Virus record (IMG/VR): IMGVR_UViG_3300033150_001293
DNA: 64,000 nucleotides
From: an uncultured virus (IMG/VR IMGVR_UViG_3300033150_001293)
Lineage: Duplodnaviria > Heunggongvirae > Uroviricota > Caudoviricetes
Direction: 5' to 3' (one strand)
Part shown: positions 4,170-53,258 of the stretch, in pieces
Layout: every line of letters begins with the position of its first letter
Position numbering within the stretch: position 1 is the first letter of the stretch
The notes under the pieces: model-generated
Databases searched by the model: none
What the model saw: only the letters and a program-made list of their open reading frames with translations
What the model was told of the DNA's origin: nothing
Program-made: the position numbers and the translations under genes

Positions 4170-4226
4170 TTGCTACGTCCACCGAGGAATAGTACAATGC
4201 ATTCGTGCTAAGAAGTGTGTTGCGAG
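4170..4226 (+). ncRNA. promoter plus half-repeat unit (solitary crRNA-like gene)
   Basis: TTGCTA(4170)-17 bp-TACAAT(4193), then GAAGTGTGTTGCGAG at 4212-4226; reads antisense into ORF 4208-4495. Confidence 0.75.
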
Positions 4227-4495
4227 TATTTGGCGATAGCCCGCCAATCCCGACGACTCATCAGCCGGCAGGCAATAACCGGTGAGTGCCTTCGGTCCTC
4301 CGGCTGGCGATACAGCCGCAGCCGGGCCGTTCGGCCGCCGACGTGCACGGTCAGGTCGACGTACCAGCCGTGCTCGTCCACTCGCGTTACCATTCCCTCG
4401 ATCTGCGGGCCGCCGACCTCCTCGGCCACCGTCGCCCGGATCGTGTCGCCAGGCCGCAGGTCTACGTCGTATTGCTGATCAGTCAGCGTTAGCAC
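4208..4495 (-). CDS. hypothetical protein
   Basis: ORF in the operon; ends in repeat-encoded SQHTS. Confidence 0.55.
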   Translation of the reverse strand: MLTLTDQQYDVDLRPGDTIRATVAEEVGGPQIEGMVTRVDEHGWYVDLTVHVGGRTARLRLYRQPEDRRHSPVIACRLMSRRDWRAIAKYSQHTS

Positions 4496-4748
4496 GGCTC
4501 ACCTCCAGATCCTCGGCCTGCTCGATGGCCGTCTTGAGTGATTGCCCTAAAGACCGAGCTTGCTCAAGCGTTAGAAAATGGGATACGCCTACGTCTTCGC
4601 CCGGCGCTTCCCTAATGACTACGCCTAGTACCAGTGCTTCCCGTGTCACGTCCGCCCTAAGCCGCAGCCCATGCGTCCTGATTCTGGGCCTATTGCACCC
4701 ACTTGTGGCGCCAACCTGAAATTCCCATTTTGTCGATTCGCCCATCAT
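4479..4748 (-). CDS. hypothetical protein
   Basis: overlapping operon ORF. Confidence 0.55.
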   Translation of the reverse strand: MMGESTKWEFQVGATSGCNRPRIRTHGLRLRADVTREALVLGVVIREAPGEDVGVSHFLTLEQARSLGQSLKTAIEQAEDLEVSRANAD

Positions 4749-5110
4749 CCGCTCCTGTCAATCGCGGCCACCGGGTCGACCTCTGCCGGGAAATCAACCG
4801 GGACAGCCTGGTGTAGTTTCTCGGCCAAAGCATTGAGAGCGTCGATCGTTAAGTCTTCGCCGAACAACTCGCGAAACCGGGTCCGCACGGCGTCGCCGAC
4901 GAACAGCCTGTCGAGCTGGTGGTGCAGCATCCGGGTCACGTCCGGCGGGCAGAACAGCTCGACCCTTTGCTCGTCTGCTGCCTGGATACTGATGGCGACG
5001 AAGTCCATCCCGCTCGGCCTGTTGCGGCAGTCGATCACGTCGGTGCCGCTCACGTCGTGCACGTTGATCTTGTCCAGTCGCCCGTCGTTGTAATGCATCT
5101 CGATACTCAT
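4745..5110 (-). CDS. hypothetical protein
   Basis: MSIEMHY start coupled to the upstream stop. Confidence 0.55.
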   Translation of the reverse strand: MSIEMHYNDGRLDKINVHDVSGTDVIDCRNRPSGMDFVAISIQAADEQRVELFCPPDVTRMLHHQLDRLFVGDAVRTRFRELFGEDLTIDALNALAEKLHQAVPVDFPAEVDPVAAIDRSG

Positions 5111-5400
5111 GCGTTCGCTCCCATTGCTTCGGCCACGGTCCGCCGCCCTATCGCCCGGGGGACGCCGCCGCCTTCGCCTCGTAGATAGTCCCGCAGCCGC
5201 CCCGCGCAACATCCGGAGCAGACTGCCCACCATTCGCCCCCCTCCCGGAAGTGCTGCCGAAAATACCCCAGCGGCCGGCCGCAGCAGTCGCACGACTTGC
5301 GGCCGTCGAGATCGTGCCGCCGCCTCCGCTCCTGGTGCTCGGCCTCGATCACGTCTAGCAGCACCGACGGTGCCGCAATGCGGTGTTCTGGTCGCGTCAT
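5107..5400 (-). CDS. small Zn-finger-like protein
   Basis: CDCCG...CSGCC; first gene after the promoter/half-repeat at 5435-5485. Confidence 0.55.
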   Translation of the reverse strand: MTRPEHRIAAPSVLLDVIEAEHQERRRRHDLDGRKSCDCCGRPLGYFRQHFREGGEWWAVCSGCCAGRLRDYLRGEGGGVPRAIGRRTVAEAMGANA

Positions 5401-5434
5401 GTCCTCGCCCTCCATTTTCGTGGTTTCGCACTCA

Positions 5435-5485
5435 CTCGCAACACATTCCTAAGCCATACGATACCAGATAGACATCGTATGTCAA
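5435..5485 (-). promoter_or_regulatory. TTGACA promoter with a half-repeat in the 5' UTR
   Basis: minus strand TTGACA-16 bp-TATCGT, then GGAATGTGTTGCGAG (5435-5449). Confidence 0.65.
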
Positions 5486-5557
5486 TAGTCTATCGGGTAT
5501 TTTGCCAAAATAAATTCGGCAATCGCCGTAAGTTGTTGTCGGAGTTGAGGTTAGGAG

Positions 5558-5722
5558 TCACGACATACGCTTGCCCAGGGCCTGGATGACCAGAAAATCG
5601 GACACGCTCCGGCTCGTGGCCCGGGCACGCTGGCTCAGCTCCCTCCGCTCGCGGGCCGTGACCCGGATTAGAATCGCCTTGTTTCGCCGCTCCGCCGGCG
5701 ACTTCCGCCTATTGTCCGCCAT
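5558..5722 (-). CDS. ribbon-helix-helix (MobC/CopG-like) DNA-binding protein
   Basis: AILIRVTARERRELSQRARATSRSVSDFL. Confidence 0.7.
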   Translation of the reverse strand: MADNRRKSPAERRNKAILIRVTARERRELSQRARATSRSVSDFLVIQALGKRMS

Positions 5723-5733
5723 GTCGCCACCTC

Positions 5734-5790
5734 TTGCTACGTCTACCGGAGAATGGTGCAATACAATTATACTGAGAAGTATGTTGCGAG
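5734..5790 (+). ncRNA. promoter plus half-repeat unit
   Basis: TTGCTA-17 bp-TGCAAT, then GAAGTATGTTGCGAG at 5776-5790; near-copy of 4170-4226. Confidence 0.7.
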
Positions 5791-5818
5791 CGAGCGCTCC
5801 GCCGCGACGAACAGCCCC

Positions 5819-6394
5819 TCACCACTCCAGCGTCGGCTCGCCCCCGCCGATACCGATGGAGGTGGTCGTGTCGACGTACTCGGCAGACGCAGGCTGGTCG
5901 GCCGTCTGCGAGTTGTACGCGCCGAGCAACCACGGGATAGCGGTTCCGAGCCCGCCGCCGGCTAGCAGACCAGCCGCAACGTACGGTAGAGCTTTGGCTA
6001 CGAGGCCCTTTTCGGGGCTTGCTGTAGCGGGCTGCCCAGGTTGACCCGCGGGACCAGCCGGCTCGTGTATATGCACGTCGCGCGCAGCCATGATTCGCAT
6101 CGGGTTATCTTCCTCCGGCGGCCCAGATCCCCCGTCCTTTTTCCCGTAGAACAGATCTCGATGCAACGCCTTGGACTGCTCTCGCACCATTCGGTTTTCT
6201 TCCTCCATGCCGCCGACGATTGCGTCGAGTCCAACCATGCGAGTCAACCTTGCGAGTCCCGCTTTGCTCTCAAGTGCTTCAGTCACCGCCGCTTTCGCCG
6301 CCTCCAAGGGATTCGGCGAACTCGTCGACGAGTCGGTCGTAGTTGGTGAAGTCACCGCTAGTTGCTCCCGCGACAAAGGCTTTTCGGATGGCAT
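5819..6394 (-). CDS. hypothetical membrane protein
   Basis: hydrophobic C-terminal segment (ALPYVAAGLLAGGGLGTAIPWLLG). Confidence 0.55.
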   Translation of the reverse strand: MPSEKPLSREQLAVTSPTTTDSSTSSPNPLEAAKAAVTEALESKAGLARLTRMVGLDAIVGGMEEENRMVREQSKALHRDLFYGKKDGGSGPPEEDNPMRIMAARDVHIHEPAGPAGQPGQPATASPEKGLVAKALPYVAAGLLAGGGLGTAIPWLLGAYNSQTADQPASAEYVDTTTSIGIGGGEPTLEW

Positions 6395-6629
6395 CGGCTC
6401 GGTCCGCGATCCGCTTCCGCCGAAGCGCGCTGTCCTCCACGGTTTCTGATTCTCGCAGATAATCGACCAACTCCCCCATGATGGAAAGCATGTTGGCCGT
6501 TACCTTCGCGATCACCGCAGCCGCTTGGGCCTTGCGGTCGGTCGCAAACTCCGCCGCAGAAAACAACTTTTCGGCCGTAGCGTTGTTCTCCGCGGCGCGT
6601 TTGCGGAAATCGTCTCCCAAGCCGCTCAT
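6279..6629 (-). CDS. hypothetical protein
   Basis: 116-aa helical ORF. Confidence 0.5.
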   Translation of the reverse strand: MSGLGDDFRKRAAENNATAEKLFSAAEFATDRKAQAAAVIAKVTANMLSIMGELVDYLRESETVEDSALRRKRIADRADAIRKAFVAGATSGDFTNYDRLVDEFAESLGGGESGGD

Positions 6630-6638
6630 GTTGACCCC

Positions 6639-6830
6639 TTACGGCAAGAGGAGCACTTTGTCGATGGCCCGAGCCTCGGCCGGTCCAGGTTCATCGGCAA
6701 CTTTGATGGCCACCGCACGGAGGGTCCGGTTCGCATGGCCGATGCCGGCCCGAACCGAATTGATGTGCTTCTGATGGCTCAAGTGGGCCGACGTCTTGAT
6801 GAGTGTTTTGACGTTCTCAGGAAGTGCCAT
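6639..6830 (-). CDS. hypothetical protein
   Basis: 63-aa ORF with AGGAG RBS. Confidence 0.55.
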   Translation of the reverse strand: MALPENVKTLIKTSAHLSHQKHINSVRAGIGHANRTLRAVAIKVADEPGPAEARAIDKVLLLP

Positions 6831-6900
6831 AGTCTGTACGCTCCTATTTCAGCGAAGAAGAACTTGGTACGTTCACACGAAAGGCATGGTCGCTAGGCGA

Positions 6901-7194
6901 TCACGGCTTCTTTTTCATAATCACCTCGGCCGCCGCCGCTTCGATGGGGCCAACTTCATCGAACTTGCGCCCAGAGGCAAAGTCAACAATCTGGCCCATC
7001 GTCTCTTCGTTGGCCGCCTGGTCTTCGACAAAAGCCGTGTGCCCCTTGGCCATGTCTTCAATAATGACCTGGAGGCAATCGCCATCAATGTCGCCACTGG
7101 CGTGTTCTTCCAAAACTGTACTCACTGCGTCATCTCCTTGCCCGTCGCCGGGCGTTACGGTGTTGATGGTCGCGGGTGCCACGTCGCACCTCAC
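6901..7194 (-). CDS. hypothetical acidic protein
   Basis: ORF in the operon. Confidence 0.5.
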
Positions 7195-8534: not shown

Positions 8535-8938
8535 CGGTCAATCCTCTCCACGTACAACGGCATCCCCAGTTTCGCGCACACCGCCTGGCATCGCCAGACG
8601 AACCGTTCTTCGCCATCTTCGACAAGCAGTAATACGGCCGGCTGCTTCCGCAGCACCAACCCGTAGTATTGGCCTTGGCCGATTGCTTCTGCCCACTTCT
8701 TAGCACGATCTACTTCAATCGCCTCCGTCTCGGTCACGAGGTCGCACCGCGAGCGATCCCACAACATTACTTCCGTTTCGGCTCCGTACTTGTCGGCCAG
8801 CCGTTCGCACCAGTCGTGTTCGGACAGCTTTACGTCGGTGCTGGATCTTGCACTCGTGGGGCGTCCGGCGATGATCGCCAAAATGACGGCCAACCCAAAC
8901 AGACTCATCACGATGGCTTCTGTTGTTGACAGCTTCAT
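8531..8938 (-). CDS. membrane-anchored PD-(D/E)XK-like protein
   Basis: N-terminal [27 protein letters not shown]. Confidence 0.55.
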
Positions 8939-8953
8939 CGCCTTGGCCTTTCG

Positions 8954-10383: not shown

Positions 10384-10384
10384 C

Positions 10385-10451
10385 CTCGCAACACACTCCG
10401 GAGAAATCTTACATTCCCATATAGTCTAGCACTGTGCTAGCACCCTGTCAA
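10385..10451 (-). promoter_or_regulatory. promoter with a half-repeat overlapping the RBS
   Basis: TTGACA-17 bp-TAGACT; GGAGTGTGTTGCGAG-G-ATG at 10381-10399. Confidence 0.7.
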
Positions 10452-10736: not shown

Positions 10737-10782
10737 TTGCTACGTCCACCGAGGATATGGTACAATGCAGTTGTGCTGCGAG
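10737..10782 (+). promoter_or_regulatory. copy of the repeated promoter cassette with a decayed repeat handle
   Basis: TTGCTACGTCCACCGAGGATATGGTACAATGCAGTTGTGCTGCGAG. Confidence 0.65.
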
Positions 10783-11325: not shown

Positions 11326-11340
11326 CTCGCAACACACTTC
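11326..11340 (-). repeat. dispersed half-repeat immediately followed by a TAGACA-17-TAGAAT promoter
   Basis: CTCGCAACACACTTC exact. Confidence 0.85.
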
Positions 11341-12876: not shown

Positions 12877-13171
12877 TTCGCAACACACTTCTCAGATTTC
12901 AGCCGTTGTCACTAGGTGAGGAGGATACGAAACTGACCGAGAGGCTGCTCTCGCAACACACTTCTCAGACTTCAGCCGTTGTCACGCCCGGATGATGGGC
13001 GTGAGGCGGTCCTATTTCTCGCAACACACTTCTCAGATTTTAGCCGTCGTCACCACACCCGCGCGGTTGACACTGGCCCCATCTCGGCTACTCGCAACAC
13101 ACTTCTCGATTTTTAGCCGTCGTTACTAGCGACAAACGCCGGCGCGATCCCGCACTCTCGCAACACACTTC
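12877..13171 (-). CRISPR. CRISPR array A: 4 full 36-bp repeats plus a leading 15-bp half-repeat, 4 spacers (30-37 bp)
   Basis: repeats at 12877, 12950, 13018, 13091; half-repeat 13157-13171; minus-strand TATAAT at 13181-13186. Confidence 0.95.
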
Positions 13172-13285
13172 ATGCTCCCTATTATAGCAGCCTTGACGGC
13201 CGAGCGTCCATGGATTCCCGAAGGGAACCTAACTCCTACCCCCGCAACGATTTAGGGTTTCCGGCCGAAATTGCCCGGGAGAAGG

Positions 13286-23417: not shown

Positions 23418-24291
23418 ATGAGCAGATCGCAATGGGTCCGCGTCAGTCGACGCGAGCCTTGTCCGGTCTGTCATCCACAAGCCGGACTGGTGCCTTGTAA
23501 CTGGTCCTGAAGGATGTCGTACGGCCGTGATATGCGCCCGCGTCGAGAGCCCCAAGCGCTGCGGCGAGGCTGGCTGGCTCCACAAGCTGCGGGATGACTG
23601 GCGGAATTCGCCCCCGCCCAGACTCGATCCGAAGCCGGAGCGGCCAGAGCCGAAGCGGGACTTCGCGGCGTTCGCGGAGCTGTGCACGACACAGTTGCAC
23701 CGAGACGCCCTGGGGGCGTTTGCCGGGAAGATGGGGCTAAGCGTCGGCTCGCTCGTGCGGCTGGGGCTCGGCTGGTCGCTGGAACATAAGGCGTTCACGT
23801 TCCCAATGCGGCGGGGCTCCGACGGCAAGGTGGTGGGCATCCGGCTGCGTCTACGCAGCGGCCGGAAGCTGGCGGTCAAAGGCGGGAGGGAGGGGCTGTT
23901 TGTGCCGTCGGACACGCCGCGGACTGGCGAGCTGTACCTGCCGGAGGGGCCGACGGACACGGCGGCGCTGCTGGACATCGGCTGCGAGGCGGTAGGGCGG
24001 CCGAGTTGCAACGGCGGCATCCAACACATACTGTCGTTCATCGCGCGGTCGAAGTACGCCGGCATCTGCGTTGTGGCGGACGCGGACGCGCCGGGCCAGC
24101 AGTGGGCGAAGGTGTTGGCGGAAAAGCTGCTACCGTACGCCCCCCGGGTGTGGATCGTCACGCCGCCTGACGGACACAAGGACGTGAGAGACTGGGTGCG
24201 GGGGGGAGCGACAAAACGCAACATTGACGGCGCAGCCGTGCCGCAAGAAACTCGCAACACACTTCTTAGCACAAATGCATTGTACCATTAG
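23418..24291 (+). CDS. Zn-finger/TOPRIM primase-like protein with a +1 frameshift near 23475
   Basis: MSRSQWVRVSRREPCPVCH | HKPDWC; EGPTD, DADAPG, KDVRDW. Confidence 0.8.
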
Positions 24292-24307
24292 AGGCAGGAT
24301 GCGGCAA
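24251..24307 (-). ncRNA. promoter plus half-repeat unit antisense to the primase 3' end
   Basis: minus strand TTGCCG-17 bp-TACAAT-GCATTTGTGCTAA-GAAGTGTGTTGCGAG. Confidence 0.75.
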
Positions 24308-26213: not shown

Positions 26214-26382
26214 GGCTGAAATTCAAGAAGTGTGTTGCGAGGCACGGGGCGACCTGGACACGTCACACCTCGTGACGACGGCTGAAATCTGAGAAGTGTG
26301 TTGCGAGACCGAATCTCACCGTAGAGAAGAGCCTCTTTATAGGGTGGCGACAACGGCTGAAATCTGAGAAGTGTGTTGCGAG
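26214..26382 (+). CRISPR. CRISPR array B: 3 repeats (first 5'-truncated), 2 spacers
   Basis: repeats at 26214, 26272, 26347. Confidence 0.92.
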
Positions 26383-26960: not shown

Positions 26961-27875
26961 CGGGAAGTGTGTTGCGAGGGCGAGAACCGGCTTCAGCACG
27001 TGGTCCCCGCAAGAGGTGACAACGGCTGAAAGCGGAGAAGTGTGTTGTGAGGACGGGGCGATTGCGGGTTGTGACGACGGCTGAAATTGGAGAAGTGTGT
27101 TGCGAGCCGAGTCTGTCCCCGAGGGTGACAACGGCTGAAAATCGAGAAGTGTGTTGCGAGACACGGCGCCCGCGCCCGTCTCGACGCCGCGAGCGACGTG
27201 ACAATGGCTGAAAATCGAGAAGTGTGTTGCGAGCACCCGGCTCACGTCCACGCCGCCCGGGCCGGCCCGGTGACAATGGCTGAAATCCGAGAAGTGTGTT
27301 GTGAGAAGGTCACCCACCCTCCGAGTGGTGACAACGGCTGAAATCGGAGAAGTGTGTTGCGAGACCTCCCAGCGCCGCCCGCCGGGGTCGGACAGCTCGC
27401 CCGTGACAACGGCTGAAAATCGAGAAGTGTGTTGCGAGCCGAATAGGTCGGTAAGCTTGGTTGGGTGGTGCTCTCGTGACGATGGCTGAAATTCGAGAAG
27501 TGTGTTGCGAGCAGACCCCAATCGTGCAAGACCGCGACACTAAGGCACGTGACGACGGCTAAAATCTGAGAAGTGTGTTGCGAGCCGACGAAGAATCCCG
27601 CCGTCGCGAGGGAGATGGCCGTGACAACGGCTGAAATCTGAGAAGTGTGTTGCGAGCTGCCATCGTTACCCTTTCAGTCTGGTTATGTTACCCGTGACGA
27701 CGGCTGAAATCCGAGAAGTGTGTTGCGAGGCTTCGGAGTAGGCCAGCCGCCCGTCCAGGTCCGGGGTGATGACGGCTGAAAGTCGAGAAGTGTGTTGCGA
27801 GTGTCCATGATGCAATCGCAGGGGACGCTGCTGGAGGCGCTGACGACGGCTGAAATCGGAGAAGTGTGTAACGAG
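26957..27875 (+). CRISPR. CRISPR array C: 14 repeats (first internally deleted, last degenerate), 13 spacers of 18-39 bp
   Basis: repeats at 26957, 27016, 27071, 27125, 27198, 27270, 27328, 27403, 27476, 27549, 27621, 27694, 27766, 27840. Confidence 0.97.
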
Positions 27876-27900
27876 CAAACAAGCGAGGGAGCGAGGCAAA

Positions 27901-29184
27901 ATGGCCATCGGAATTCTAGAAGTCAAGCTGGGGCGTCCGATCCAAATGCCAACGAAGCGGTTCCACCAGCTACTCAGGCAGGCCCGCCGCGATTGCTGCA
28001 AAGCACGCAACGCGGCCATGCTCCACTGGTATGTCTGGCGGCGAGAGCACGCGGATTGGGAGCCGGGAAAACCATACGAGGCGCCGAAAGCCAAGATTAT
28101 GCGAACTCGCAAACCGGCAGGCGAAGGGAAGAAGCCACCGAAGGACTCGCCGATTGCCCCTCGCCTATTTCTTAGCCGCGAACTCTACCACGCGGCAACC
28201 GCGGCGGCGCGGAACCTGTCGGCGTCGCTCGCCTCGTCGTGTGTACAGGAGGTGATCGCCCGACTCAAGGCCAACACCCCTTACGACCACGACGGCGAAG
28301 CGAGGTGGGTATGGCAAGCAATCCTTGCGTCCGAAGTCAATCTGCCCACCTGGCGCGGCGGGCGCATCCCGATGCCCAAGCGGTGCTCGTCGCTCGGATA
28401 CGACGGGGCCGTCAGCCAACCGTCGGCTGACGTGGCGAGGGCCTGCAAAAGCGGGTGCGTTTTGAAGTTTCAACTGCTGTCTAGGCTGAGCGGCTATAGG
28501 ACGCTATCGCCCATCGTCCGACTGGACGCCGCCGACCTGACGCGGGGCAACCGGCGATTGCTGAGGCGTCTGGCGTCTGGCGAGGTACGTCTGGCAGACA
28601 GCCAGATCGTCGAGAAAAAGGGCAAGTGGTTCGCCCAATTCTGCTACGAGGTGGCGGCCAACGCGATCGGCCTGCCAACGGATCAGGTGTTGACGCTACT
28701 GCCGGCGGAGCCGGACGACAAGTGGCCGTTCGCGCTCGCATGGACCAAGGAGGATGGGAATGGGCGGGTGTGGAAGATTGGCAACGGGCGGCCGCTCGTG
28801 GCCGAATACCGCCGGGTAGTAGCCCGGCGCCGGGCGATCCGCTACCGCTACCAGGACGGGACGGGCAGCGGGCACGGGCGCCAGCGGTGGTACAAGGCGA
28901 TTCGTCCGATGGCTCACGCCGTGCGGGACATGCAGAACCGCTTTGAGAAGCAGACGATTGCGGACATCATCAAGCTGGCGATTCGTGAGCGGTGCGGCAC
29001 GGTCCTGTACCGCGAGCCGACGATGCCGGTCCGCAACTATTCGTGGTTTGCGGCCAAGGACGTGCCGTTTGACTGGACGAGTTTCGAGGCGAGGCTGCGG
29101 TTCAAGACGGAGACGCGCGGCCTGGCCTACGAGAAGGCGCGTATCGGGATGAAGGAATGGCGTCCAAGAAAAATCGCAAACTGA
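27901..29184 (+). CDS. cas12f: Cas12f-like type V effector, predicted nuclease-dead
   Basis: collinear with AsCas12f1 as recalled: ILASEVNLPTWR/ILRGDMSIPSYK, SQIVEKKGKWF/SQIIHDDRKNKWY, GHGRQR/GHGRDKR, AIRERCGTV/AIKEGCGTI; RuvC-I is VLTLLPA (no D), RuvC-II is VLYREPT, Zn finger and RuvC-III absent; flanked by arrays. Confidence 0.85.
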   Translation: MAIGILEVKLGRPIQMPTKRFHQLLRQARRDCCKARNAAMLHWYVWRREHADWEPGKPYEAPKAKIMRTRKPAGEGKKPPKDSPIAPRLFLSRELYHAATAAARNLSASLASSCVQEVIARLKANTPYDHDGEARWVWQAILASEVNLPTWRGGRIPMPKRCSSLGYDGAVSQPSADVARACKSGCVLKFQLLSRLSGYRTLSPIVRLDAADLTRGNRRLLRRLASGEVRLADSQIVEKKGKWFAQFCYEVAANAIGLPTDQVLTLLPAEPDDKWPFALAWTKEDGNGRVWKIGNGRPLVAEYRRVVARRRAIRYRYQDGTGSGHGRQRWYKAIRPMAHAVRDMQNRFEKQTIADIIKLAIRERCGTVLYREPTMPVRNYSWFAAKDVPFDWTSFEARLRFKTETRGLAYEKARIGMKEWRPRKIAN

Positions 29185-29477
29185 TCCTCGACTGCGAGAT
29201 ATGCGGGGAGCCGGTAGTGCTGTCGCCGTCGCGGTACGTCGCGCTCGTGCGGGCTGGCGAGCGGCCGCGGTGCCGGAAGAACGGGTGCGAGAGGTTGTGC
29301 GGTGCGAAAAGTGCGGGGACCTCTCGCGGCACGCAAGTACTTGCCGGGGCGAGGGTTTCGCCGCTGGTAGTGCAATGGCCCCACACGAAGAGGGGCAACA
29401 AGAATGGAGCCCTCGCAAAGCTGGCCGTAAAGCGAGACGGCGCATGGCGTTACGAGGGGTGCCGTGACGATGGCTGA
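29157..29477 (+). CDS. small Cys-rich Zn-finger protein overlapping the cas12f stop
   Basis: CEICG...CRKNGC. Confidence 0.55.
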   Translation: MASKKNRKLILDCEICGEPVVLSPSRYVALVRAGERPRCRKNGCERLCGAKSAGTSRGTQVLAGARVSPLVVQWPHTKRGNKNGALAKLAVKRDGAWRYEGCRDDG

Positions 29478-31145
29478 AATCGGAGAAGTGTGTTGCGAGA
29501 CACGAGTTCAGGCGATGTATATACTGGTATGAGCAAGTGACGATGGCTGAAATCGGAGAAGTGTGTTGCGAGGGTCCGACGCCTCCGCAATCTGCTTGGC
29601 GTAGCCGAGTGACAACGGCTGAAATCGGAGAAGTGTGTTGCGAGTGCGAGCGTCCTCCACCCCGAGGCTCGGGTACCTCCCGTGACGACGGCTGAAATCG
29701 GAGAAGTGTGTTGCGAGGCACGTCTCTGGCCTCGCCAATCGCCGCGTTCTTGCCGTGACGATGGCTGAAAATCGAGAAGTGTGTTGCGAGAGAACCGTCA
29801 AGTCCGGGTCGCCACCGTGCGACGACGGCTGAAAGCGGAGAAGTGTGTTGCGAGGCGAATACGAGAGACGTGGGCGCCGACCGTTGGCCGCGTGATGACG
29901 GCTGAAAGCGGAGAAGTGTGTTGCGAGCTGGTAGCGGCAGGCGTGTATCGCCCGAAAGACGGGCGTGACGCGGCTGAAATCCAAGAAGTGTGTTGCGAGT
30001 AGAGTCTGCATAGGCTCAGCGTGTGACAACGGCTGAAAGTCAAGAAGTGTGTTGCGAGCCTGCCGATCGCCCATTGCGTCTCACTCCTTTCGGGTCGTGA
30101 CGATGGCTAAAATCCGAGAAGTGTGTTGCGAGAAGGTCGCCCACCCTCCGAGTGGTGACGACGGCTGAAATTCGAGAAGTGTGTTGCGAGAATGAAGAGG
30201 GAAGGCAGGGGTTACGATCCCATCCGGCGTGATGATGGCTGAAATCTGAGAAGTGTGTTGCGAGGGGTGGACGTGCCGGCGGCGACGATCACGGTGGACG
30301 GCGTGACGATGGCTGAAATCGGAGAAGTGTGTTGCGAGTCGAGTAGCTGCCCGGGGGCTTGTAGGCACCGGCCCGCGTGACGATGGCTGAAAATCGAGAA
30401 GTGTGTTGCGAGAACCACGCAATCAGGGAGCTGGCCTGGGAGGGTGTCAAGTGACGACGGCTGAAATCGGAGAAGTGTGTTGCGAGGCCGAAAACCGAAG
30501 ACGATCAGCGTGCGATAGCTGGTCGTGACGATGGCTGAAATCTGAGAAGTGTGTTGCGAGAGCACGTACGGGCTCACACCCGGCGGTTGACTCCAGCGGT
30601 GACGACGGCTGAAATCTGAGAAGTGTGTTGCGAGCCCTCCCGTGTGACGAGCCGGATGACCTATACGCAGGTGACGACGGCTGAAAATCAAGAAGTGTGT
30701 TGCGAGTCGCCAACCCGGGGATACGTTCAACGGACAGCTACGGACGTGACGATGGCTGAAATTCGAGAAGTGTGTTGCGAGTTGATCGAGAAGATGTTGG
30801 TGGCTGGCCAGCCGGCGTGTGACGATGGCTGAAATTCGAGAAGTGTGTTGCGAGTCGCGGGCCTTCAGGAGGGCAGTTAGCCGTGATTGCAGTGATGACG
30901 GCTGAAATCTGAGAAGTGTGTTGCGAGGCGTCGATCAGCGCCAGCGGGGCCGGCCCGTGGAATGCGTGACGATGGCTGAAATCTGAGAAGTGTGTTGCGA
31001 GAAGCCAAGAGGCAATGCGAGCACGGCGAATGGGGGCGTGACAACGGCTGAAAGCGGAGAAGTGTGTTGCGAGGCTGCCCAATGTGCCCTTGTATTTGGC
31101 GAGAGAACGCGTGCCAACGGCTGAATCCAAGAAGTGTGTCGCGAG
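29464..31145 (+). CRISPR. CRISPR array D: 24 repeats, 23 spacers of 22-39 bp
   Basis: 36-bp repeats from 29464 to a degenerate terminal copy at 31111-31145. Confidence 0.98.
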
Positions 31146-31488
31146 CGAAAAGAAGCCGCACAAGTACAGGGCCCGCCCCGTTGTGGTAGACGGCATCCGG
31201 TTCGCAAGCAAGCGGGAAGCCGCCCGCTACGGCGAGCTGCGATTGCTGGAGCGCGGCGGCCGGATCAAGAATCTCCAGGTCCATCCGCCTTTTATATTGC
31301 AAGAAAAGTTCATCCGGCCGGACGGAAGGAAGGTGCCGGCAATCCGATACATAGGGGATTTCTCCTATTGGGAGGCCGGCGTGTTCGTTGTGGAAGATGT
31401 GAAGGGCGTCGAGACCGTAGTGTGGAAGCTGAAGCAGAAAATGTTTTGGAAGCGGTACCCCGAGATCGATCTGAGGATAGTAAAATGA
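31111..31488 (+). CDS. DUF1064-like phage endonuclease
   Basis: KYRARPVVVDGIRFASKREA...YIGDF...VVEDVKG; probable GTG start inside the terminal repeat. Confidence 0.8.
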   Translation: MPTAESKKCVASEKKPHKYRARPVVVDGIRFASKREAARYGELRLLERGGRIKNLQVHPPFILQEKFIRPDGRKVPAIRYIGDFSYWEAGVFVVEDVKGVETVVWKLKQKMFWKRYPEIDLRIVK

Positions 31489-31823
31489 ACACGCTGATCT
31501 TCCTGGCCGCGTGGCTGGCGATGGGCCTGGCTGGCGTCGCCCTTGGGGCGATTGCACGGCGGCGTATCGGCTTGCCGCAGAACGACCGCCTAACGCAGGT
31601 CACAGCTTCGTTTGCTGGGCCGATGGTCCTGATAGGCGGGATCGTGATGCTGATCTACTCTCGCAACATACTTCGCAGCACAACTGCATGGTACCATTCC
31701 TCGGCGGACGCAGGGAGGACGACTCGCAATTTGCCCTGTCGCAAGACGCCCCCCCCGGACAGTAGGGAAGGGTCGGCCGAGCCGACCCTTCCCCCCAAAA
31801 GTACCGTGTCGCCGGAGAAATAG
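31485..31823 (+). CDS. small membrane protein (C-terminus runs through inserted elements)
   Basis: MNTLIFLAAWL.. two TM segments. Confidence 0.5.
   Translation: MNTLIFLAAWLAMGLAGVALGAIARRRIGLPQNDRLTQVTASFAGPMVLIGGIVMLIYSRNILRSTTAWYHSSADAGRTTRNLPCRKTPPPDSREGSAEPTLPPKSTVSPEK
31660..31715 (-). ncRNA. promoter plus half-repeat unit
   Basis: minus strand CGTCCGCCGAGGAATGGTACCATGCAGTTGTGCTGC-GAAGTATGTTGCGAG. Confidence 0.7.
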
Positions 31824-31825
31824 CG

Positions 31826-32512
31826 ATGAAATGTTCGGCCGTAGTCCTATCCTTCAATCGCGTGCCCAACCTGGGCCGTATCGTCGAGAACCTCCGGCGG
31901 CACGACTGGATAGACGACATCGTGATATGGCACCAAGGCGAGCGGCTGCCGCCCGACTTCGAAGTGTGTTGCGAGCCTATCTGGTATGGCGTCCGCGAAA
32001 TCCACGCGCACAACCGCCTGCGCATGGGGCGATTCGACGCGATGGACCATTGCGCCCACGACGCGGTGCTCGTCCAGGACGACGACACGCTGCCCCGCAA
32101 CCTCGACGCGGCGTGGCAAGCCTGGCGCGAGGAGCAGTCCCGGATCGTTGCCCTGCTCGACCGTGGGCACCTGATGACGGACCGCTGGCGGCACTGGGGC
32201 GATTGCCATGAGGTGCTGCTCGGCTGGGGCGCAATCCTCGATCGGCGGTGGCGGAACGTGTTCAGGCTATGGGAGCACAGCTACGGCGTTGACGAGTTGC
32301 TAGAGCGGAAGGCCGACCGTATCTTCTCAATCCTCCAGCGGCGGCACCACACCGTCCTGCTGGCTGACTACGAGAAGCTACCCGGGGCGGACTCGAACGA
32401 CGCGGCGTGGAAGCAGCCGGACCATGACGCGACGACGAGAGAGGCGAGAGAGCGGTGCCTGAACGGCATATGTGGAATGGGATTGCAGCGCCACGAGTAC
32501 CGGATACGATAA
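31826..32512 (+). CDS. GT-A fold glycosyltransferase
   Basis: SFNRVPNL, IVIW, VQDDD; exact half-repeat at 31961-31975 inside the CDS. Confidence 0.75.
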   Translation: MKCSAVVLSFNRVPNLGRIVENLRRHDWIDDIVIWHQGERLPPDFEVCCEPIWYGVREIHAHNRLRMGRFDAMDHCAHDAVLVQDDDTLPRNLDAAWQAWREEQSRIVALLDRGHLMTDRWRHWGDCHEVLLGWGAILDRRWRNVFRLWEHSYGVDELLERKADRIFSILQRRHHTVLLADYEKLPGADSNDAAWKQPDHDATTREARERCLNGICGMGLQRHEYRIR

Positions 32513-33237
32513 TGCATTTGCCCCTGTACCCCGTGCCGAGCGACACTTGGCAGGACGAATACGAGGCGTGTTTGGCGGACCCGTACCTGCAAAAGAAATA
32601 CGACCGGGAGAAGAGCATCCGGGAGCACGTCGACTACTTCGGCCGATACTGCCCGGAACTCGTGCCCGTAACCAAACCGCCCGGGCTGGTCGTCGACATC
32701 GGCCCCGGCTTCGGCGTTGGGCTAGAGGTCGCCCGCCAGCTCGGATACGACACGATCGGCGTCGAGTCCCCGTCCGGCGATGGCGGGATGGGGGACGCCT
32801 ACCACCGGCTGAGTCGCCTACTGCATGCGCGGCAGAAGCTAGCCGTAACCTACGTCGGCTGGCAGGAGTGGGTTGAGGCGGCCGAGATTCCCGAGGACAG
32901 CGTGTTTCTGTTCAACTCGCGCGGATCGTGGGAGCAGTGCTACGCGGAACTTCTGAGCGGCCCGCCTCACGACCGGCACCACGACTGCAAACAGCAGACG
33001 TGGGATCAGATCGTGACGTGCGTTATCCGGTGGCGGCGGGCGTTCGCGTTCATGGCGTCCCGGCTCGTGCCTGGCGGGCTCGTGCTGATCCACGCCAACG
33101 GGACCGGCTCGTCGACCAGCGACCGATGGTACAGCGCGGCGATAGCCGCCGCTGGGGAGTTTGCCGGACTCGAATTGGCGCTGAAGGAGGGCAATAAATT
33201 GCACAAGTGGAAGAAACCACAACTGATGGAGACATAG
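32512..33237 (+). CDS. SAM-dependent methyltransferase
   Basis: VVDIGPGFG, IGVE, LVPGG. Confidence 0.75.
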   Translation: MHLPLYPVPSDTWQDEYEACLADPYLQKKYDREKSIREHVDYFGRYCPELVPVTKPPGLVVDIGPGFGVGLEVARQLGYDTIGVESPSGDGGMGDAYHRLSRLLHARQKLAVTYVGWQEWVEAAEIPEDSVFLFNSRGSWEQCYAELLSGPPHDRHHDCKQQTWDQIVTCVIRWRRAFAFMASRLVPGGLVLIHANGTGSSTSDRWYSAAIAAAGEFAGLELALKEGNKLHKWKKPQLMET

Positions 33238-33240
33238 CCG

Positions 33241-33825
33241 ATGCCAGGCTCGCAACACACTTCAACTTCCCATCATAGCGGAAAGACGGTTGCCGACAAG
33301 TCATCCGAGGGAAACGGCGAAGAAATCGACCGGCTGAAATCGGAAATCGCCGCACACAAGGAAAGCCTGAAAACATGCCGCAAGACGATTGCGTCGCTCG
33401 AACAGTCTCTGGAAACGGCCAACGCTGCGATTTGGCGAATCGTAGATGAGGTCTGGTCGGTGCGAACTTGCAAGGAAAACGTCGAGCTGGGCGAGACAGT
33501 CGAGGCATTGGTTGAAAACCACAAAGCGTATCTCGCGTTGATCAGGTCGAGGAGGCAAGAGGCTGCAAGAATATGCAAGGAAGCACGCGAGATTCAATCC
33601 GCGTTGCGGTTCGTCGGGCGTGCTGCCAGTTCAGGGTCGAGCGGTATGATGTTCGGATCAGCAGAGCACTTGGTACTCAGCATCGACGCAATCATGCGCC
33701 AGGCGTGTCGAGATATTGACGGTTTGATTGCCAGTTCGACTGGCGTCGTAAACGGCAGCCAAGATCGCTTGATGCGGGACGCGGTGGCAGAACTCCCGCA
33801 ACACCACTCGCAACACACTTCATAA
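33241..33825 (+). CDS. coiled-coil hypothetical protein bracketed by half-repeats
   Basis: starts and ends with repeat-encoded SQHTS; true start uncertain. Confidence 0.45.
   Translation: MPGSQHTSTSHHSGKTVADKSSEGNGEEIDRLKSEIAAHKESLKTCRKTIASLEQSLETANAAIWRIVDEVWSVRTCKENVELGETVEALVENHKAYLALIRSRRQEAARICKEAREIQSALRFVGRAASSGSSGMMFGSAEHLVLSIDAIMRQACRDIDGLIASSTGVVNGSQDRLMRDAVAELPQHHSQHTS
33249..33300 (-). ncRNA. promoter plus half-repeat unit
   Basis: TTGTCG...TATGAT-GGGAAGTT-GAAGTGTGTTGCGAG; promoter sequence shared with 36942-37000. Confidence 0.65.
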
Positions 33826-33859
33826 CTGTATTATACCATGTCCTCAGCGGACGCAGCAA
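33807..33859 (-). ncRNA. promoter plus half-repeat unit
   Basis: TTGCTG-18 bp-TATAAT-ACAGTTAT-GAAGTGTGTTGCGAG. Confidence 0.75.
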
Positions 33860-33884
33860 GGAGTCTTGACATGAAGGACGCGGG

Positions 33885-34799
33885 ATGCGGGCAATAATAA
33901 TATACGACGTGGACGGTTTCGCGTACCACCGGCGGGCGGTAGCATTGAAAAAGTACGCGCCGCCCGACGCGGACGTGCGGCTTGTCAGGACGCCCGACTA
34001 CTGCGGCCCCGGCGACGCGGACGTAGTGGTGCTTTTGGACTATATCTGTCTGGGCATGGTTCAGGGCATGACGCCGGCCCGAGTGCCGCTCGTTTGCACA
34101 TTTTCGGCGGACCACCGGCGGCGGGAGAAACAGTGGCGGCACACCTGCGAGCACGCCGACTGGGTGATAGCGTTGAGCCGGGAGCGGTACGAGGCGGAGC
34201 CGCGATTCGGCAACACCTGCTGCATTGCCAACGGCGTGGACCTCGACGATTTTGGTGCAGACGTACCGATCGAGGGCCGGCCAGACAAGGCGCTGTGGAT
34301 CGGCCAGGACGGGCGAGGGGACAACAAGGGGCTGATCTCCGTCCTGTCGCCGCTGCGCAAGCTGGCCGAGCGGAGCGGGTTCGCCTGCGACTTCCGGGCG
34401 GTGGGCCCTCGCGGATTTTCTACGGATCGCCTGCGGAGTTGGTATAATAGCGGGAGTTACATCGTGTGCGCTAGCCGCTCGGAGGCGACGGCAAACACGG
34501 TGATGGAGGCAGCCGCTTGCGGCTGCGTGCCGGTGAGCACGCCGGTTGGTACCCTGACGGATTGGGGCCAGGATGGCGAGAACTGCGTGCTCGTGAAGGA
34601 TCGGTCGCCGGAGGCGTTCCTGAAAGGACTGCAACGGGCGAAGGACGCACGCCTCCGGCTGGCCGCCGGCACGATGGAGGCCGTGGCGAGGTATGACTAC
34701 CGCCGCGTGGCGGAGCTGTACTGGGAGGATGTAATTCGGCCAATCGCCGAAGGGCGCCGGCCGGAACAATTCTGCTACCTCTCGCAACACACTTCCTGA
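33885..34799 (+). CDS. GT-B (GT4-like) glycosyltransferase
   Basis: ANGVD, KG, SRSEATANTVMEAAACG. Confidence 0.85.
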   Translation: MRAIIIYDVDGFAYHRRAVALKKYAPPDADVRLVRTPDYCGPGDADVVVLLDYICLGMVQGMTPARVPLVCTFSADHRRREKQWRHTCEHADWVIALSRERYEAEPRFGNTCCIANGVDLDDFGADVPIEGRPDKALWIGQDGRGDNKGLISVLSPLRKLAERSGFACDFRAVGPRGFSTDRLRSWYNSGSYIVCASRSEATANTVMEAAACGCVPVSTPVGTLTDWGQDGENCVLVKDRSPEAFLKGLQRAKDARLRLAAGTMEAVARYDYRRVAELYWEDVIRPIAEGRRPEQFCYLSQHTS

Positions 34800-34938
34800 C
34801 TATATTATACTATATCCACCGAGGAAATTTTGTAGGAGAAAGAGCCGTGGAGCCAGAATTGAGTTCGGAAGCCTGAAACCACCTTAAGAACTCGGCCGTT
34901 AAGGCTGCTATAATGGGGAGTATGAAGTGTGTTGCGAG
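34781..34938. ncRNA. divergent pair of TATAAT plus half-repeat units
   Basis: 15-mers at 34781-34795 (-) and 34924-34938 (+); the + promoter resembles the array A leader (CGGCCGTYAAGGCTGCTATAATRGGGAGYATGAAG). Confidence 0.7.
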
Positions 34939-53257: not shown

Positions 53258-53258
53258 G

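What the first reader, a model, noticed from the sequence alone, without database searches (positions are those of the whole stretch)
4170..34830. The promoter-handle cassette is copied as a unit, in at least three sequence families
Seen: family 1 (approximately TTGCTRCGTCCRCCGAGGA-TGGTAYAATRCARTTRTGCT) at 4170, 5734, 10737, 31660(-) and 33807(-), with partial copies at 845, 24251(-), 34781(-) and 43804(-). Family 2 (GGCCGTYAAGGCTGCTATAATRGGGAGYAT) at the array A leader and 34894. Family 3 (CTCGGATGACTTGTC..ACCGTCTTTYCGCTATGAT) at 33249(-) and 36942(-). Conservation of the -35/-10 spacer sequence implies duplication rather than convergence. Inference: a ~55-bp mini-element spread by recombination (the phage has RecE/RecT), which would create new guides without Cas1.
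Basis: partly seen in the sequence, partly recalled or inferred. Interest (0 to 1): 0.75.

Follow-up and report, generated by a model that had tools for sequence, protein, structure and literature searches.

The report
Promoter-fused guide handles in phage
A phage that carries a non-cutting Cas12f-like protein and large CRISPR-like arrays has also scattered about eighteen copies of a short 'promoter plus guide-RNA handle' module through its genome, mostly firing backwards into the ends of its own genes, which looks like a way to make guide RNAs out of its own DNA without the usual spacer-capture machinery.

Summary
Formal alignment gives four sequence families plus singletons, and similarity runs through the -35/-10 spacer and the transcribed leader. 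Every unit ends exactly at the last base of a 15-nt 'handle', GAAGTGTGTTGCGAG. This handle is the near-invariant 3' end of a 36-nt repeat that forms arrays with 42 spacers.

The arrays flank a 427-aa Cas12f-like protein. It lacks the RuvC-II glutamate context and the whole Zn-ribbon/RuvC-III end. It belongs to a conserved clade of 49 such short proteins, and all 18 relatives with enough flanking DNA also have arrays.

Of 17 promoter-handle units, 12 point antisense into the 3' ends of phage genes and 5 lead genes or an array.

Best reading: these are duplicated leader-plus-handle modules acting as stand-alone guide-RNA genes whose guide is the adjacent phage DNA. Duplication as a unit is well supported. 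Transposon-like mobility is not: there are no target-site duplications, and no close relative exists for an empty-site test. Transcription, loading onto the protein, the targets and the TAM remain untested.

The parts
4170..4226 (+). Family 1 promoter-handle unit (TTGCTA-17-TACAAT, 13-nt leader, handle). It runs antisense into the 3' end of ORF 4208-4495(-).
5734..5790 (+). Family 1 unit, antisense to the minus-strand genes.
10737..10782 (+). Family 1 promoter with most of the handle deleted. It is followed by a structured, terminator-ended RNA candidate at 10772-10985.
31660..31716 (-). Family 1 unit (the -35 box has degenerated to TCCCTG), antisense to a small plus-strand membrane-protein ORF.
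33807..33859 (-). Family 1 unit with a shorter leader (8 nt), antisense into ORF 33241-33825(+).
845..881 (+). Partial family 1 unit (extended -10, leader and handle, with a different upstream part), antisense into ORF 858-1571(-).
24251..24307 (-). Partial family 1 unit, antisense into the primase-like gene 23527-24291(+).
43804..43855 (-). Partial family 1 unit (the handle has one change, GCAAG), antisense into glycosyltransferase gene 42811-43827(+).
13157..13204 (-). Family 2 unit. It is the leader of array A (extended -10 TGCTATAAT, 9-nt leader, handle) and is followed by 4 full repeats reaching down to 12877.
34891..34938 (+). Family 2 unit, sense, upstream of ORFs 34927-35199 and 35221-35637. 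It is divergent from the unit at 34781-34830(-).
33249..33311 (-). Family 3 unit (TTGTCG-16-TATGAT, 8-nt leader), antisense into ORF 32455-33237(+).
36942..37005 (-). Family 3 unit. Its upstream end abuts an oppositely oriented handle at 37003-37017(+).
40341..40380 (-). Family 4 unit (TGGTATAAT, 9-nt leader), antisense into ORF 39349-40386(+).
40527..40566 (+). Family 4 unit, the inverted twin of 40341-40380, sense, upstream of glycosyltransferase gene 40624-41631.
34781..34830 (-). Unit weakly related to family 1 (TAGTATAAT, 8-nt leader), antisense into glycosyltransferase gene 33885-34799(+).
57528..57573 (+). Singleton unit (TTGTAT-17-TATATA), antisense. The handle ends one base before the stop of ORF 57574-57993(-).
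5435..5492 (-). Singleton sense unit (TTGACA...TATCGT; handle GGAATGTGTTGCGAG), followed by an RBS and gene 5107-5415(-).
10385..10450 (-). Singleton sense unit (TTGACA-17-TAGACT, 23-nt leader). The handle abuts the ATG of gene 9913-10383(-).
26227..26382 (+). Mini-array of one partial and two full repeats. The last repeat abuts the RBS of gene 26373-26960.
26964..27875 (+). Array upstream of the effector gene: one handle-only first unit and 13 full repeats. The last repeat precedes the effector's RBS.
27901..29184 (+). Cas12f-like effector, 427 aa, apparently nuclease-dead.
29157..29477 (+). Small CxxC...C ORF overlapping a region conserved in length and sequence. The region holds a covarying hairpin and runs directly into the first repeat, so it is a candidate scaffold/tracr-like RNA.
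29464..31145 (+). Main array downstream of the effector (24 repeats).
37003..37081 (+). Two-unit mini-array (handle, 28-nt spacer, full repeat) ahead of methyltransferase gene about 37097-37717.
45070..45105 (+). Solitary full repeat at the end of the plus-strand gene block. Its 'guide' runs antisense into the convergent gene 45108-46166(-).

Best explanation
The cassettes are duplicated 'leader plus handle' modules of a phage-borne, nuclease-dead Cas12f-like CRISPR system. They act as stand-alone guide-RNA genes that need no processing.

Each unit is an extended -10 or -35/-10 promoter placed so that transcription should start 0-6 nt before the handle. The handle is the conserved 3' end of the array repeat, which in a Cas12f-type crRNA sits directly 5' of the guide. 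Whatever phage DNA lies downstream is then read as the guide.

The same module heads array A, so the solo units are in effect one-guide arrays. New copies arose by copying the module (about 40-64 bp, always ending at the last handle base) into gene junctions, often into the last codons of a gene.

Because the guides are the phage's own sequence, the RNPs can only recognise the phage itself or kin phages that share those genes. The protein lacks a RuvC site, so the outcome would be binding, meaning regulation or exclusion, and not cutting.

Shown here: the sequence families, the sharp boundaries, the geometry, the orientation, the effector fold and the loss of catalytic parts, and the conservation of handle and arrays in relatives.

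Inferred: transcription, loading of these short-handled RNAs onto the protein, the mode of copying, and the biological effect.
For: 1. The handle is the near-invariant part of the repeat. Positions 21-36 are identical in 43-46 of 46 full repeats, while positions 6, 8, 13 and 17-20 vary. It is exact in 20 of the 28 non-array units.

2. 17 of those 28 have a -10-like box. Its spacing to the handle is 8-9 nt in 10, 13 nt in 4, 5 nt in 2 and 23 nt in 1.

3. A family 2 unit sits where array A begins.

4. Family structure goes beyond the promoter boxes. Local scores are 16-33 within the family 1 core, and 27, 28 and 22 for families 2-4, against a null 99th percentile of 11. Alignments end at the handle's last base and the flanks are unrelated.

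5. The effector is Cas12f-like:
- PADLOC Cas12u3 at 1.3e-13 and Cas12f at 3.4e-12.
- AsCas12f chains at about 2e-9 by sequence and 1e-18 to 3e-19 by fold, with the natural dCas12f 9n9c at 2e-12 (model pLDDT 83.9).
- 'CGTIQMEDLT' of AsCas12f aligns with 'CGTVLYREPT'.
- The protein stops where AsCas12f still has about 54 residues.
- 49 homologues (40-77% identical) were found, and the 20 aligned (409-479 aa) end at the same place, with Y370, R371 and P373 invariant.

6. Relatives were fetched as 28 locus rows. Of these, 18 show arrays whose repeats differ in the 5' half but share the handle end RYGWTGCRAG. L050 and L070 carry a TTGACG-17-TAAATT promoter 7 nt before the handle (whose output was cut for L050-L053; one search shows arrays in L050, L051 and L053). 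The other 10 rows are short contigs with too little flanking DNA, or showed no array.

7. Copying of repeat units to new sites is seen in relatives: L055, L056 and L057 have one and L058 and L059 do not.

8. 12 of the 17 units are antisense at gene junctions. In 8 of the 11 with an opposite ORF of at least 60 codons, that ORF ends inside the cassette. The handle complement is translated as SQHTS in 4 ORFs, LATHFSA in 2 and RNTLL in 1, as expected for secondary insertions.
Against: - There is no expression data. No RNA run holds the stretch, so promoters and start sites are motif-based only.
- The generic sigma-70 scan of 24001-44000 found 8 sites against 4.2 +/- 2.3 in shuffles, and only 3 of the 8 are cassettes. 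Most units rest on a TG-extended -10.
- Solo RNAs would lack the 5' half of the repeat. In the arrays that half can pair with the handle (96% of cells paired, with wobble-only variation). If that hairpin is what the protein binds, solo RNAs may not load.
- The candidate anti-repeat CTCGCA in the conserved downstream region shows no compensating change in the two loci whose handle ends GCAAG.
- No target or TAM is known. Array spacers hit nothing in the phage beyond one 19/20 match, nothing in GenBank phages, nothing in the held relatives and nothing in three exact scans.
- At a unit's own locus the TAM position is occupied by the handle, so self-binding is not assured.
- A near-complete relative phage (G002, 95% complete) has 15 handles, all in its single array, so solos are not a necessary part of the system.
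- Other strong TGGTAYAAT promoters in the window carry no handle: 19 of 25 candidates.
Confidence: 0.5

Rival explanations
1. The units are a regulon of ordinary phage promoters (a mobile or duplicated promoter module). The handle is a shared 5' leader that works on the RNA itself and not as a guide adaptor: a docking, stabilising or processing tag for the dCas12f-like protein or another factor. Shared spacer sequence would then reflect an operator for a common regulator or simple duplication.
For: - Five units, and many full repeats, sit directly in front of genes, so that the mRNAs would start with the handle: 5449-, 10399-, 34924+, 40552+, and the repeats before 20721, 25520, 26419, 27901 and 37097.
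- The sequences that follow are purine-rich RBS regions.
- Repeated promoter cassettes that shuffle genes are known in T4-type phages as PeSL (PMC2839356, PMC4122927; search listing only).
- Earlier notes of this scan reached a similar reading in another phage.
Against: - 12 of the 17 units drive no gene. They point into the 3' end of the preceding gene.
- The tagged part is exactly the guide-adjacent part of the repeat of a Cas12f-type system.
- The reverse strand of the cassettes forms no terminator-like fold, with z from -0.02 to -0.62, unlike PeSL.
Confidence: 0.18
2. The units are cis-antisense RNA genes of the lambda OOP type (recalled). Each junction promoter makes an RNA that pairs with the 3' end of the upstream gene's mRNA and lowers its level. 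The handle is a hitch-hiking or accessory part of the promoter module.
For: - 12 of the 17 units are antisense, sit at gene junctions and overlap the last codons of the upstream gene.
- They cluster in the accessory glycosyl/methyltransferase block at 31.6-44 kb.
Against: - It does not explain why the exact 15-nt handle is kept in 20 of 28 non-array units across four unrelated promoter families.
- It does not explain the fixed -10-to-handle spacing.
- No consistent terminators follow the units, so no discrete small RNA is predicted.
Confidence: 0.12
3. The units are RNA decoys (RNA anti-CRISPRs, or viral crRNA-like RNAs). Promoter-driven partial repeats would soak up or re-programme a host Cas12f-type effector that uses a similar repeat.
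For: - Viral solitary repeat units just downstream of predicted promoters are a described class, and one was shown to inhibit type I-F (PMC10651486, passages read).
- Viral crRNA-like RNAs that re-programme host Cas proteins are described (10.1101/2024.10.29.618823, abstract).
Against: - The phage brings its own cognate protein and arrays with 42 spacers, whereas solitary repeat units are described as not associated with cas genes.
- No relative of the effector was found in one genome of each of 185,579 species, so no host system with this repeat is in sight.
- About 17 copies, with orientation tied to gene ends, is not what a decoy needs.
Confidence: 0.07
4. The units are non-functional debris: fragments of arrays and leaders scattered by illegitimate recombination, now decaying.
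For: - Decayed copies exist: 10737 has lost its handle; 867, 24265 and 43818 have lost the -35 part; exact handles lie inside coding regions without promoters at 31961 and 39564.
Against: - The handle is exact in 20 of 28 non-array units.
- The -10 boxes are kept at constrained spacing across families.
- Orientation is biased, 12 antisense to 5 sense.
Confidence: 0.05

Closest known systems
Viral solitary repeat units / RNA anti-CRISPRs (Racr; PMC10651486, passages read) and viral crRNA-like RNAs (Cracr; 10.1101/2024.10.29.618823, abstract read)
   Same: [quoted passage not shown]
   Different: - Only the 15-17-nt guide-adjacent end of the repeat is kept.
- There are about 17 copies in four promoter families.
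- The cognate (dead) effector and large arrays are in the same phage.
- The 'guide' is the phage's own coding sequence, mostly antisense to gene ends.
- No host Cas partner is known.
Nuclease-dead Cas12f / TnpB derivatives: dCas12f-sigmaE and a CRISPR-associated dCas12f cluster (PMC13472631, passages read); TldR repressors (10.1101/2023.11.30.569447, search listing only)
   Same: Cas12f fold, C-terminal truncation removing part of the RuvC site, and guide at the 3' end of the RNA. The paper notes an uncharacterised dCas12f cluster next to CRISPR arrays.
   Different: - No sigma-factor partner was found here.
- The system is phage-borne, with 42 array spacers plus dispersed promoter-driven guides.
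- The targets are unknown.
- Whether this protein belongs to the cluster mentioned in that paper was not tested.
TnpB omega-RNA logic (established knowledge of IS200/IS605; recalled)
   Same: The guide is simply the DNA that flanks the 3' end of the element, so each new insertion creates a new guide without an adaptation machine.
   Different: - No transposase, no element ends and no target-site duplication.
- The scaffold is not carried in the unit.
- The effector is nuclease-dead, so there is no homing by cleavage.
Repeat-embedded promoters giving processing-independent crRNAs in Neisseria meningitidis type II-C
   Same: crRNA 5' ends are set by transcription initiation and not by cleavage.
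   Different: There, the promoter lies inside every array repeat of a Cas9 system. Here, separate promoter families are fused to a partial repeat outside the arrays.
PeSL promoter cassettes of T4-type phages (PMC2839356, PMC4122927; search listing only)
   Same: Short repeated promoter-containing cassettes at gene junctions of a phage, thought to spread or shuffle by recombination.
   Different: PeSLs face the gene they drive and include a stem-loop. Most units here face backwards, carry a crRNA handle and show no stem-loop.

Membership tests
CRISPR guide-RNA gene (type V-F-like crRNA) | A repeat-derived handle directly 5' of the guide, in the orientation used by the arrays | tested here: met
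   The handle is the 3' end of the 36-nt repeat. Arrays, solos and the effector gene share this orientation logic.
CRISPR guide-RNA gene (type V-F-like crRNA) | Cognate effector encoded in the same genome | tested here: met
   The 427-aa Cas12f-like protein lies between two arrays.
CRISPR guide-RNA gene (type V-F-like crRNA) | The RNA is made and bound by the effector | not testable with these tools
   No RNA run is listed. Promoters are inferred from motifs only.
CRISPR guide-RNA gene (type V-F-like crRNA) | A matching target flanked by a PAM/TAM | tested here: inconclusive
   Solo guides match only their own locus. Array spacers gave one 19/20 self match and no outside match. The TAM is unknown.
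Viral solitary repeat unit / Racr | A solitary CRISPR-repeat-like sequence in a virus, downstream of a predicted promoter | tested here: met
   17 units have a -10-like box 5-23 nt upstream, although only the 3' part of the repeat is present.
Viral solitary repeat unit / Racr | Not associated with cas genes, and acts on a host CRISPR-Cas system | tested here: not met
   The effector and arrays are in the same phage. No host system was found. Inhibition itself cannot be tested here.
crRNA-like regulators (CreA/CreR/Cracr type) | A short or partial spacer match to a promoter that is thereby repressed | tested here: inconclusive
   No partial match above chance was found for the solo guides elsewhere in 76.8 kb of the phage.
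Transposable mini-element (MITE/IS-like) | Target-site duplications and/or terminal inverted repeats | tested here: not met
   The longest word shared by the two 14-nt flanks of 10 units is 0-5 nt and is not at the boundaries.
Transposable mini-element (MITE/IS-like) | Empty sites in relatives | tested here: inconclusive
   G001 is identical at all handles. The read laying gave only 151-268-nt pieces and no joints. A single-protein search for syntenic relatives found nothing usable. A presence/absence case exists for a promoter-less repeat unit in relatives.
Nuclease-dead Cas12f / TldR-like effector | Cas12f/TnpB fold | tested here: met
   Foldseek gives AsCas12f at E 2.7e-19 and dCas12f 9n9c at 2e-12.
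Nuclease-dead Cas12f / TldR-like effector | Loss of RuvC catalytic residues or truncation of RuvC-III and the Zn ribbon | tested here: met
   The alignment to AsCas12f shows YREP in place of MEDL, and the protein ends about 54 residues early. This is conserved in the 20 aligned homologues. The position of the RuvC-I Asp could not be placed with confidence.
Nuclease-dead Cas12f / TldR-like effector | RNA-guided DNA binding that changes transcription | not testable with these tools
   It needs ChIP-seq or reporter assays.

The most novel reading that the evidence does not exclude
Handle-tagged promoters are self-programming. Every transcript that starts with the handle is loaded onto the dead Cas12f-like protein and guides it back to the DNA it came from. 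The RNP would pair with the template strand just downstream of its own start site, with the handle side facing the incoming polymerase. As the protein accumulates, the whole set of tagged promoters (sense and antisense) would then be shut off together.

This would be a genome-wide timer that needs no separately evolved guide-target pairs and that extends itself whenever the roughly 50-bp module is copied. It requires that the DNA copy of the handle's end serves as the TAM.

A sister version: the flank-derived guides work like TnpB guides against kin phages that share the gene but lack the cassette, giving silencing-based exclusion of relatives.
Probability: 0.12. Interest if true: 0.9.

Novelty: new variant of a known kind. 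Interest (0 to 1): 0.74.

Why it matters
Promoter-linked solitary repeats in viruses and nuclease-dead Cas12f/TnpB derivatives are each known. Four searches and passages or abstracts of three papers turned up no description of a phage that combines the following:
- a dead Cas12f-like effector;
- large arrays;
- about seventeen stand-alone promoter-driven units whose guide is the phage's own gene sequence.

If the units are functional, they show a route to new guides that needs no Cas1-Cas2: copy a 40-64-bp module and the neighbouring DNA becomes the guide. That is the TnpB principle re-appearing inside a CRISPR-like system, and it bears on how arrays and guide genes evolve from omega-RNA-like ancestors.

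It would also be a natural, multiplexed, compact CRISPRi-type circuit: a 427-aa protein, a 15-17-nt handle, and promoters that define the RNA 5' end. Such a circuit is of practical interest.

Two earlier notes of this scan describe similar units in another phage with a dead Cas12f, so the phenomenon may be wider than one genome.

Tried and rejected
- Rfam at gathering threshold and a tRNA scan of the window: nothing.
- Megablast of 40000-64000 and blastn of both arrays against GenBank phages: no meaningful match.
- The exact 15-nt handle in IMG/VR: 41 single matches in unrelated contigs, as expected by chance, and no second phage with this handle.
- Effector relatives in species-representative genomes: none.
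- Single-protein scans for close relatives in IMG/VR, using the effector and the primase: nothing usable.
- Sequencing runs: one DNA holder with 5% of the words and no RNA holder listed. Laying it gave 15 short pieces from a relative, 9 of them at least 95% alike and 5 below 90%, with no joints and no information on empty sites.
- Search for an anti-repeat by duplex energy: dominated by the reverse strands of the repeats themselves and not informative.
- Folding of a single repeat, and of solo RNAs: no significant stability, with z from -0.59 to +1.03.
- Terminators after the solo units: none consistent.
- Cross-targeting among the 176 spacers of all held loci: none.
- Three exact spacer scans (two viral, one genomes): no hit.
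- Protein atlas for the 195-aa coiled-coil neighbour: all scores were under 0.9, so no lead.
- The PeSL-like 'promoter plus terminator' reading was rejected, because the reverse strand of the cassettes does not fold better than shuffles.
- A transposon reading was rejected for lack of target-site duplications and inverted ends.

Full report
**What is in the window.**

The window is a tailed-phage genome segment of about 60% G+C. My crude gene calls place genes on the minus strand at 1-12886, on the plus strand at 13428-45083, and on the minus strand at 45108-63950.

Pfam and PHROGs identify:
- a tape-measure protein (54184-56679);
- head-tail parts;
- a RecE-like exonuclease (20703-21728) and RecT (22173-23006);
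- a helicase, a primase-like protein and a DUF1064 resolvase;
- many glycosyl- and methyltransferases (31.8-49.5 kb);
- four LRR paralogues.

A virus record, G001, overlaps the window. All handle positions are shifted by exactly 12801 bases, so it is the same phage. It adds 12.8 kb with a portal gene. No Cas1, Cas2 or Cas4 family was hit among the 83 ORFs scanned (68, 15).

**The repeat, the arrays and the handle.**

A 36-nt repeat (consensus GTGACGACGGCTGAAATCGGAGAAGTGTGTTGCGAG) forms arrays with a period of about 73. With up to 2 mismatches in its last 15 nt there are 74 units: 46 full repeats and 28 that lack the 5' half.

The arrays lie at:
- 26227-26382;
- 26964-27875;
- 29464-31145;
- 37003-37081;
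- 13171-12877 on the minus strand.

The 42 array spacers are mostly 36-39 nt; ten are 18-32 nt. Positions 21-36 of the repeat are almost invariant, while positions 6, 8, 13 and 17-20 vary. The variable 5' positions 4, 5, 6 and 8 toggle between bases that keep pairing with the handle. 96% of cells are paired, against 21-58% when the partner is shifted. This is one-sided support only, because the structure came from one of these sequences.

The arrays run in the same direction as the flanking genes. The last repeat of each abuts the ribosome-binding site of the next gene.

**The effector.**

ORF 27901-29184 lies between two arrays and encodes 427 aa. The evidence that it is Cas12f-like:
- PADLOC Cas12u3 at 1.3e-13 and Cas12f at 3.4e-12.
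- AsCas12f chains at about 2e-9 by sequence.
- An AlphaFold model (pLDDT 83.9) that matches AsCas12f at E 1e-18 to 3e-19 and the natural dCas12f 9n9c at 2e-12.

In the HMMER alignment, AsCas12f 'CGTIQMEDLT' faces 'CGTVLYREPT', and the phage protein ends where AsCas12f has about 54 residues left. From recalled knowledge, those residues hold the Zn ribbon and RuvC-III.

Forty-nine homologues of 40-77% identity exist. The 20 that I aligned (409-479 aa) stop at the same place, with Y370, R371 and P373 invariant and no conserved DxG. This is therefore a conserved clade of apparently nuclease-dead Cas12f-like proteins.

A paper on dCas12f-sigmaE mentions, without characterising it, a cluster of dCas12f next to CRISPR arrays (PMC13472631, passages). 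I did not test whether this clade is that cluster.

**Relatives.**

Profile scans returned 4 IMG/VR rows and 24 metagenome rows that encode relatives. Eighteen of these 28 rows show arrays next to the gene. Their repeats differ in the 5' half, even within one locus, but share the end RYGWTGCRAG (whose output was cut for L050-L053; one search shows arrays in L050, L051 and L053). The other 10 rows are short contigs with too little flanking DNA, or showed no array.

Downstream of the effector lies a small CxxC ORF. It overlaps a region whose length from the CxxC codons to the first handle is exactly 313 nt in 7 of 11 loci. The region contains a hairpin with compensatory changes in 5 sequences (pairs 124/154 and 125/153).

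RNAalifold pairs a conserved CTCGCA with the handle's TGCGAG. However, the two loci whose handle ends GCAAG show a C-A mismatch and no compensation. A scaffold or tracr-like RNA there is plausible but unproven.

**The finding itself.**

I took the 60 nt upstream of each handle for 18 units with a recognisable -10 box and scored all pairs by local alignment. The null from shuffles had mean 6.8 and a 99th percentile of 11.

| Group | Members | Scores |
|---|---|---|
| Family 1 core | 4212+, 5776+, 10737+, 31674-, 33821- | 16-33 |
| Family 1 partials | 867+, 24265-, 43818- | 10-22 against the core |
| Family 2 | 13171-, 34924+ | 27 |
| Family 3 | 33263-, 36956- | 28 |
| Family 4 | 40355-, 40552+ | 22; 9-15 against family 1 |
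| Weakly linked | 34795- | 6-15 against family 1 |
| Singletons | 5449-, 10399-, 57559+ | not linked |

The multiple alignments show identity running from the -35 region through the 17-nt spacer, the -10 box and the leader, up to the last handle base. Upstream and downstream flanks are unrelated.

The shared TGGTAYAAT is probably just the local promoter consensus. In one search, 19 of 25 strong candidates with that kind of box have no handle.

**Geometry and orientation.**

Of the 28 non-array units, 17 have a -10-like box. Its distance to the handle is 8-9 nt in 10, 13 nt in 4, 5 nt in 2 and 23 nt in 1. Transcripts should therefore begin at or a few bases before the handle. In family 1 the extra bases (GCUGA) match those that precede the handle in array repeats. 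One such unit (family 2) is the leader of array A.

Twelve of the 17 are antisense to the local genes and sit at junctions between co-directional genes. Five are sense: three lead genes at 5449-, 10399- and 40552+, one leads ORFs at 34924+, and one leads array A.

For 11 antisense units an opposite-strand ORF of at least 60 codons ends nearby. In 8 of these, the stop lies inside the cassette, upstream of the handle. The handle's complement is then translated as ...SQHTS in 4 ORFs...LATHFSA* in 2 and ...RNTLL... in 1. This is what one expects if cassettes landed in or at the last codons of existing genes.

Three places hold divergent, outward-facing pairs: 34781/34924, 36942/37003 and 40341/40552.

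**Mobility.**

No target-site duplications or inverted ends were found. No close relative is available for an empty-site test.

A near-complete relative phage with a 40%-identical effector has its 15 handles all in one array. L066 and L067 show no solos in about 8-10 kb on either side, while L050 and L070 have one promoter-handle unit. The expansion therefore appears specific to this lineage.

In the L055-L058 group a 34-nt repeat unit sits about 90 nt upstream of its identical copy in three contigs. It is absent from L058 and L059, and it turns conserved local sequence into a 'spacer'. This is a presence/absence case for a repeat unit in this family, though one without a promoter.

**Targets.**

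Solo guides match nothing but their own locus in 76.8 kb. Array spacers have one notable self match: 19 of 20 for spacer 27234-27253 at 61728-61747. Shuffled seeds gave 0-3 hits at up to 3 mismatches. No other matches were found anywhere I could search. The TAM is therefore unknown.

**Reading.**

Most likely (about 0.5), the units are duplicated leader-plus-handle modules that work as stand-alone guide genes for the dead Cas12f-like protein. Because the guides are phage sequence, the effect must fall on the phage itself or on kin phages, by binding and not by cutting.

The rivals are:
- a promoter regulon with a leader tag;
- OOP-like antisense RNAs;
- decoys;
- debris.

They are set out with their evidence in the Rival explanations section. 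The main weaknesses are the lack of any expression data (reported only as tried), reliance on motif-level promoters, and doubt whether RNAs without the repeat's 5' half can load.

**Comparison and novelty.**

The closest known kinds are:
- viral solitary repeat units and Racrs (PMC10651486);
- viral crRNA-like RNAs (preprint abstract);
- dCas12f and TldR;
- the TnpB rule that the flank is the guide (recalled);
- repeat-embedded promoters of Neisseria type II-C (recalled);
- PeSL cassettes (listing only).

None combines a phage-borne dead effector, large arrays and many promoter-driven partial repeats that read the phage's own genes. My four literature searches found no description of such a system.

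Two earlier notes of this scan report similar units in another phage. They are leads, not independent evidence.

I rate it a new variant of a known kind, of high interest.

Noticed in passing
window 27234-27269 and 61728-61757: One array spacer matches the phage's own DNA at 19 of its first 20 bases (18 consecutive). The site lies in the region upstream of minus-strand ORF 61259-61657, next to two copies of a 22-nt direct repeat. It is a possible self-regulatory target of the dead effector. The 5' flank there (…GGCCC) differs from the handle end.
   Followed up: partly
window 10772-10985 (+): The family 1 promoter that lost its handle is followed by a strongly folding 214-nt stretch (-95.4 kcal/mol, z -2.63), ending in a long GC hairpin and a T run. 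This is a candidate structured small RNA in a region without confident genes.
   Followed up: partly
window 36931-37017 (+): An extended -10 box (GTGGTACAAT) on the plus strand would start an RNA that begins with the exact complement of the handle and reaches the plus-strand handle 46 nt later. This gives a perfect 15-bp hairpin (z -2.11) ahead of a mini-array and a methyltransferase gene.
   Followed up: partly
window 31961-31975 and 39564-39578 (+): Copies of the 15-nt handle (exact at 31961, one mismatch at 39564) lie inside coding regions (a glycosyltransferase-like ORF and ORF 39349-40386) without any promoter box upstream.
   Followed up: no
window 29157-29477 (+) and relatives: A roughly 106-aa ORF with a CxxC...C motif overlaps the end of the effector gene and runs into the first repeat. 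Its codons vary at third positions among relatives, while the same DNA holds a covarying hairpin. It may be a detached remnant of the Cas12f zinc ribbon overlapping a scaffold RNA.
   Followed up: partly
L055-L059 (metagenome relatives): Presence/absence polymorphism of a 34-nt repeat unit inside the conserved region downstream of the effector. There are graded deletions (0, 30 and 44 nt) right after the inserted handle in three close contigs.
   Followed up: partly
window 14330-18711 (+): Four tandem paralogous genes (271-432 aa) are built of 63-nt (21-aa) leucine-rich-repeat units, each preceded by a conserved stretch of about 300 nt.
   Followed up: no
window 63361-63719: A 54-nt tandem repeat (6.6 copies, 85% matches) lies inside a minus-strand ORF at the right end of the window, which has a weak carbohydrate-binding-module hit.
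   Followed up: no
window 27306-27327 and 30133-30154: The same short 22-nt spacer, differing at one base, occurs once in each of the two large arrays. Its 5' end can pair with the start of the following repeat.
   Followed up: no
L001 3045-6188 (-): The portal-like ORF of the same phage is 1047 aa. It carries a Mu F-like domain and a weak intein-splicing hit (below the Pfam cut-off).
   Followed up: no
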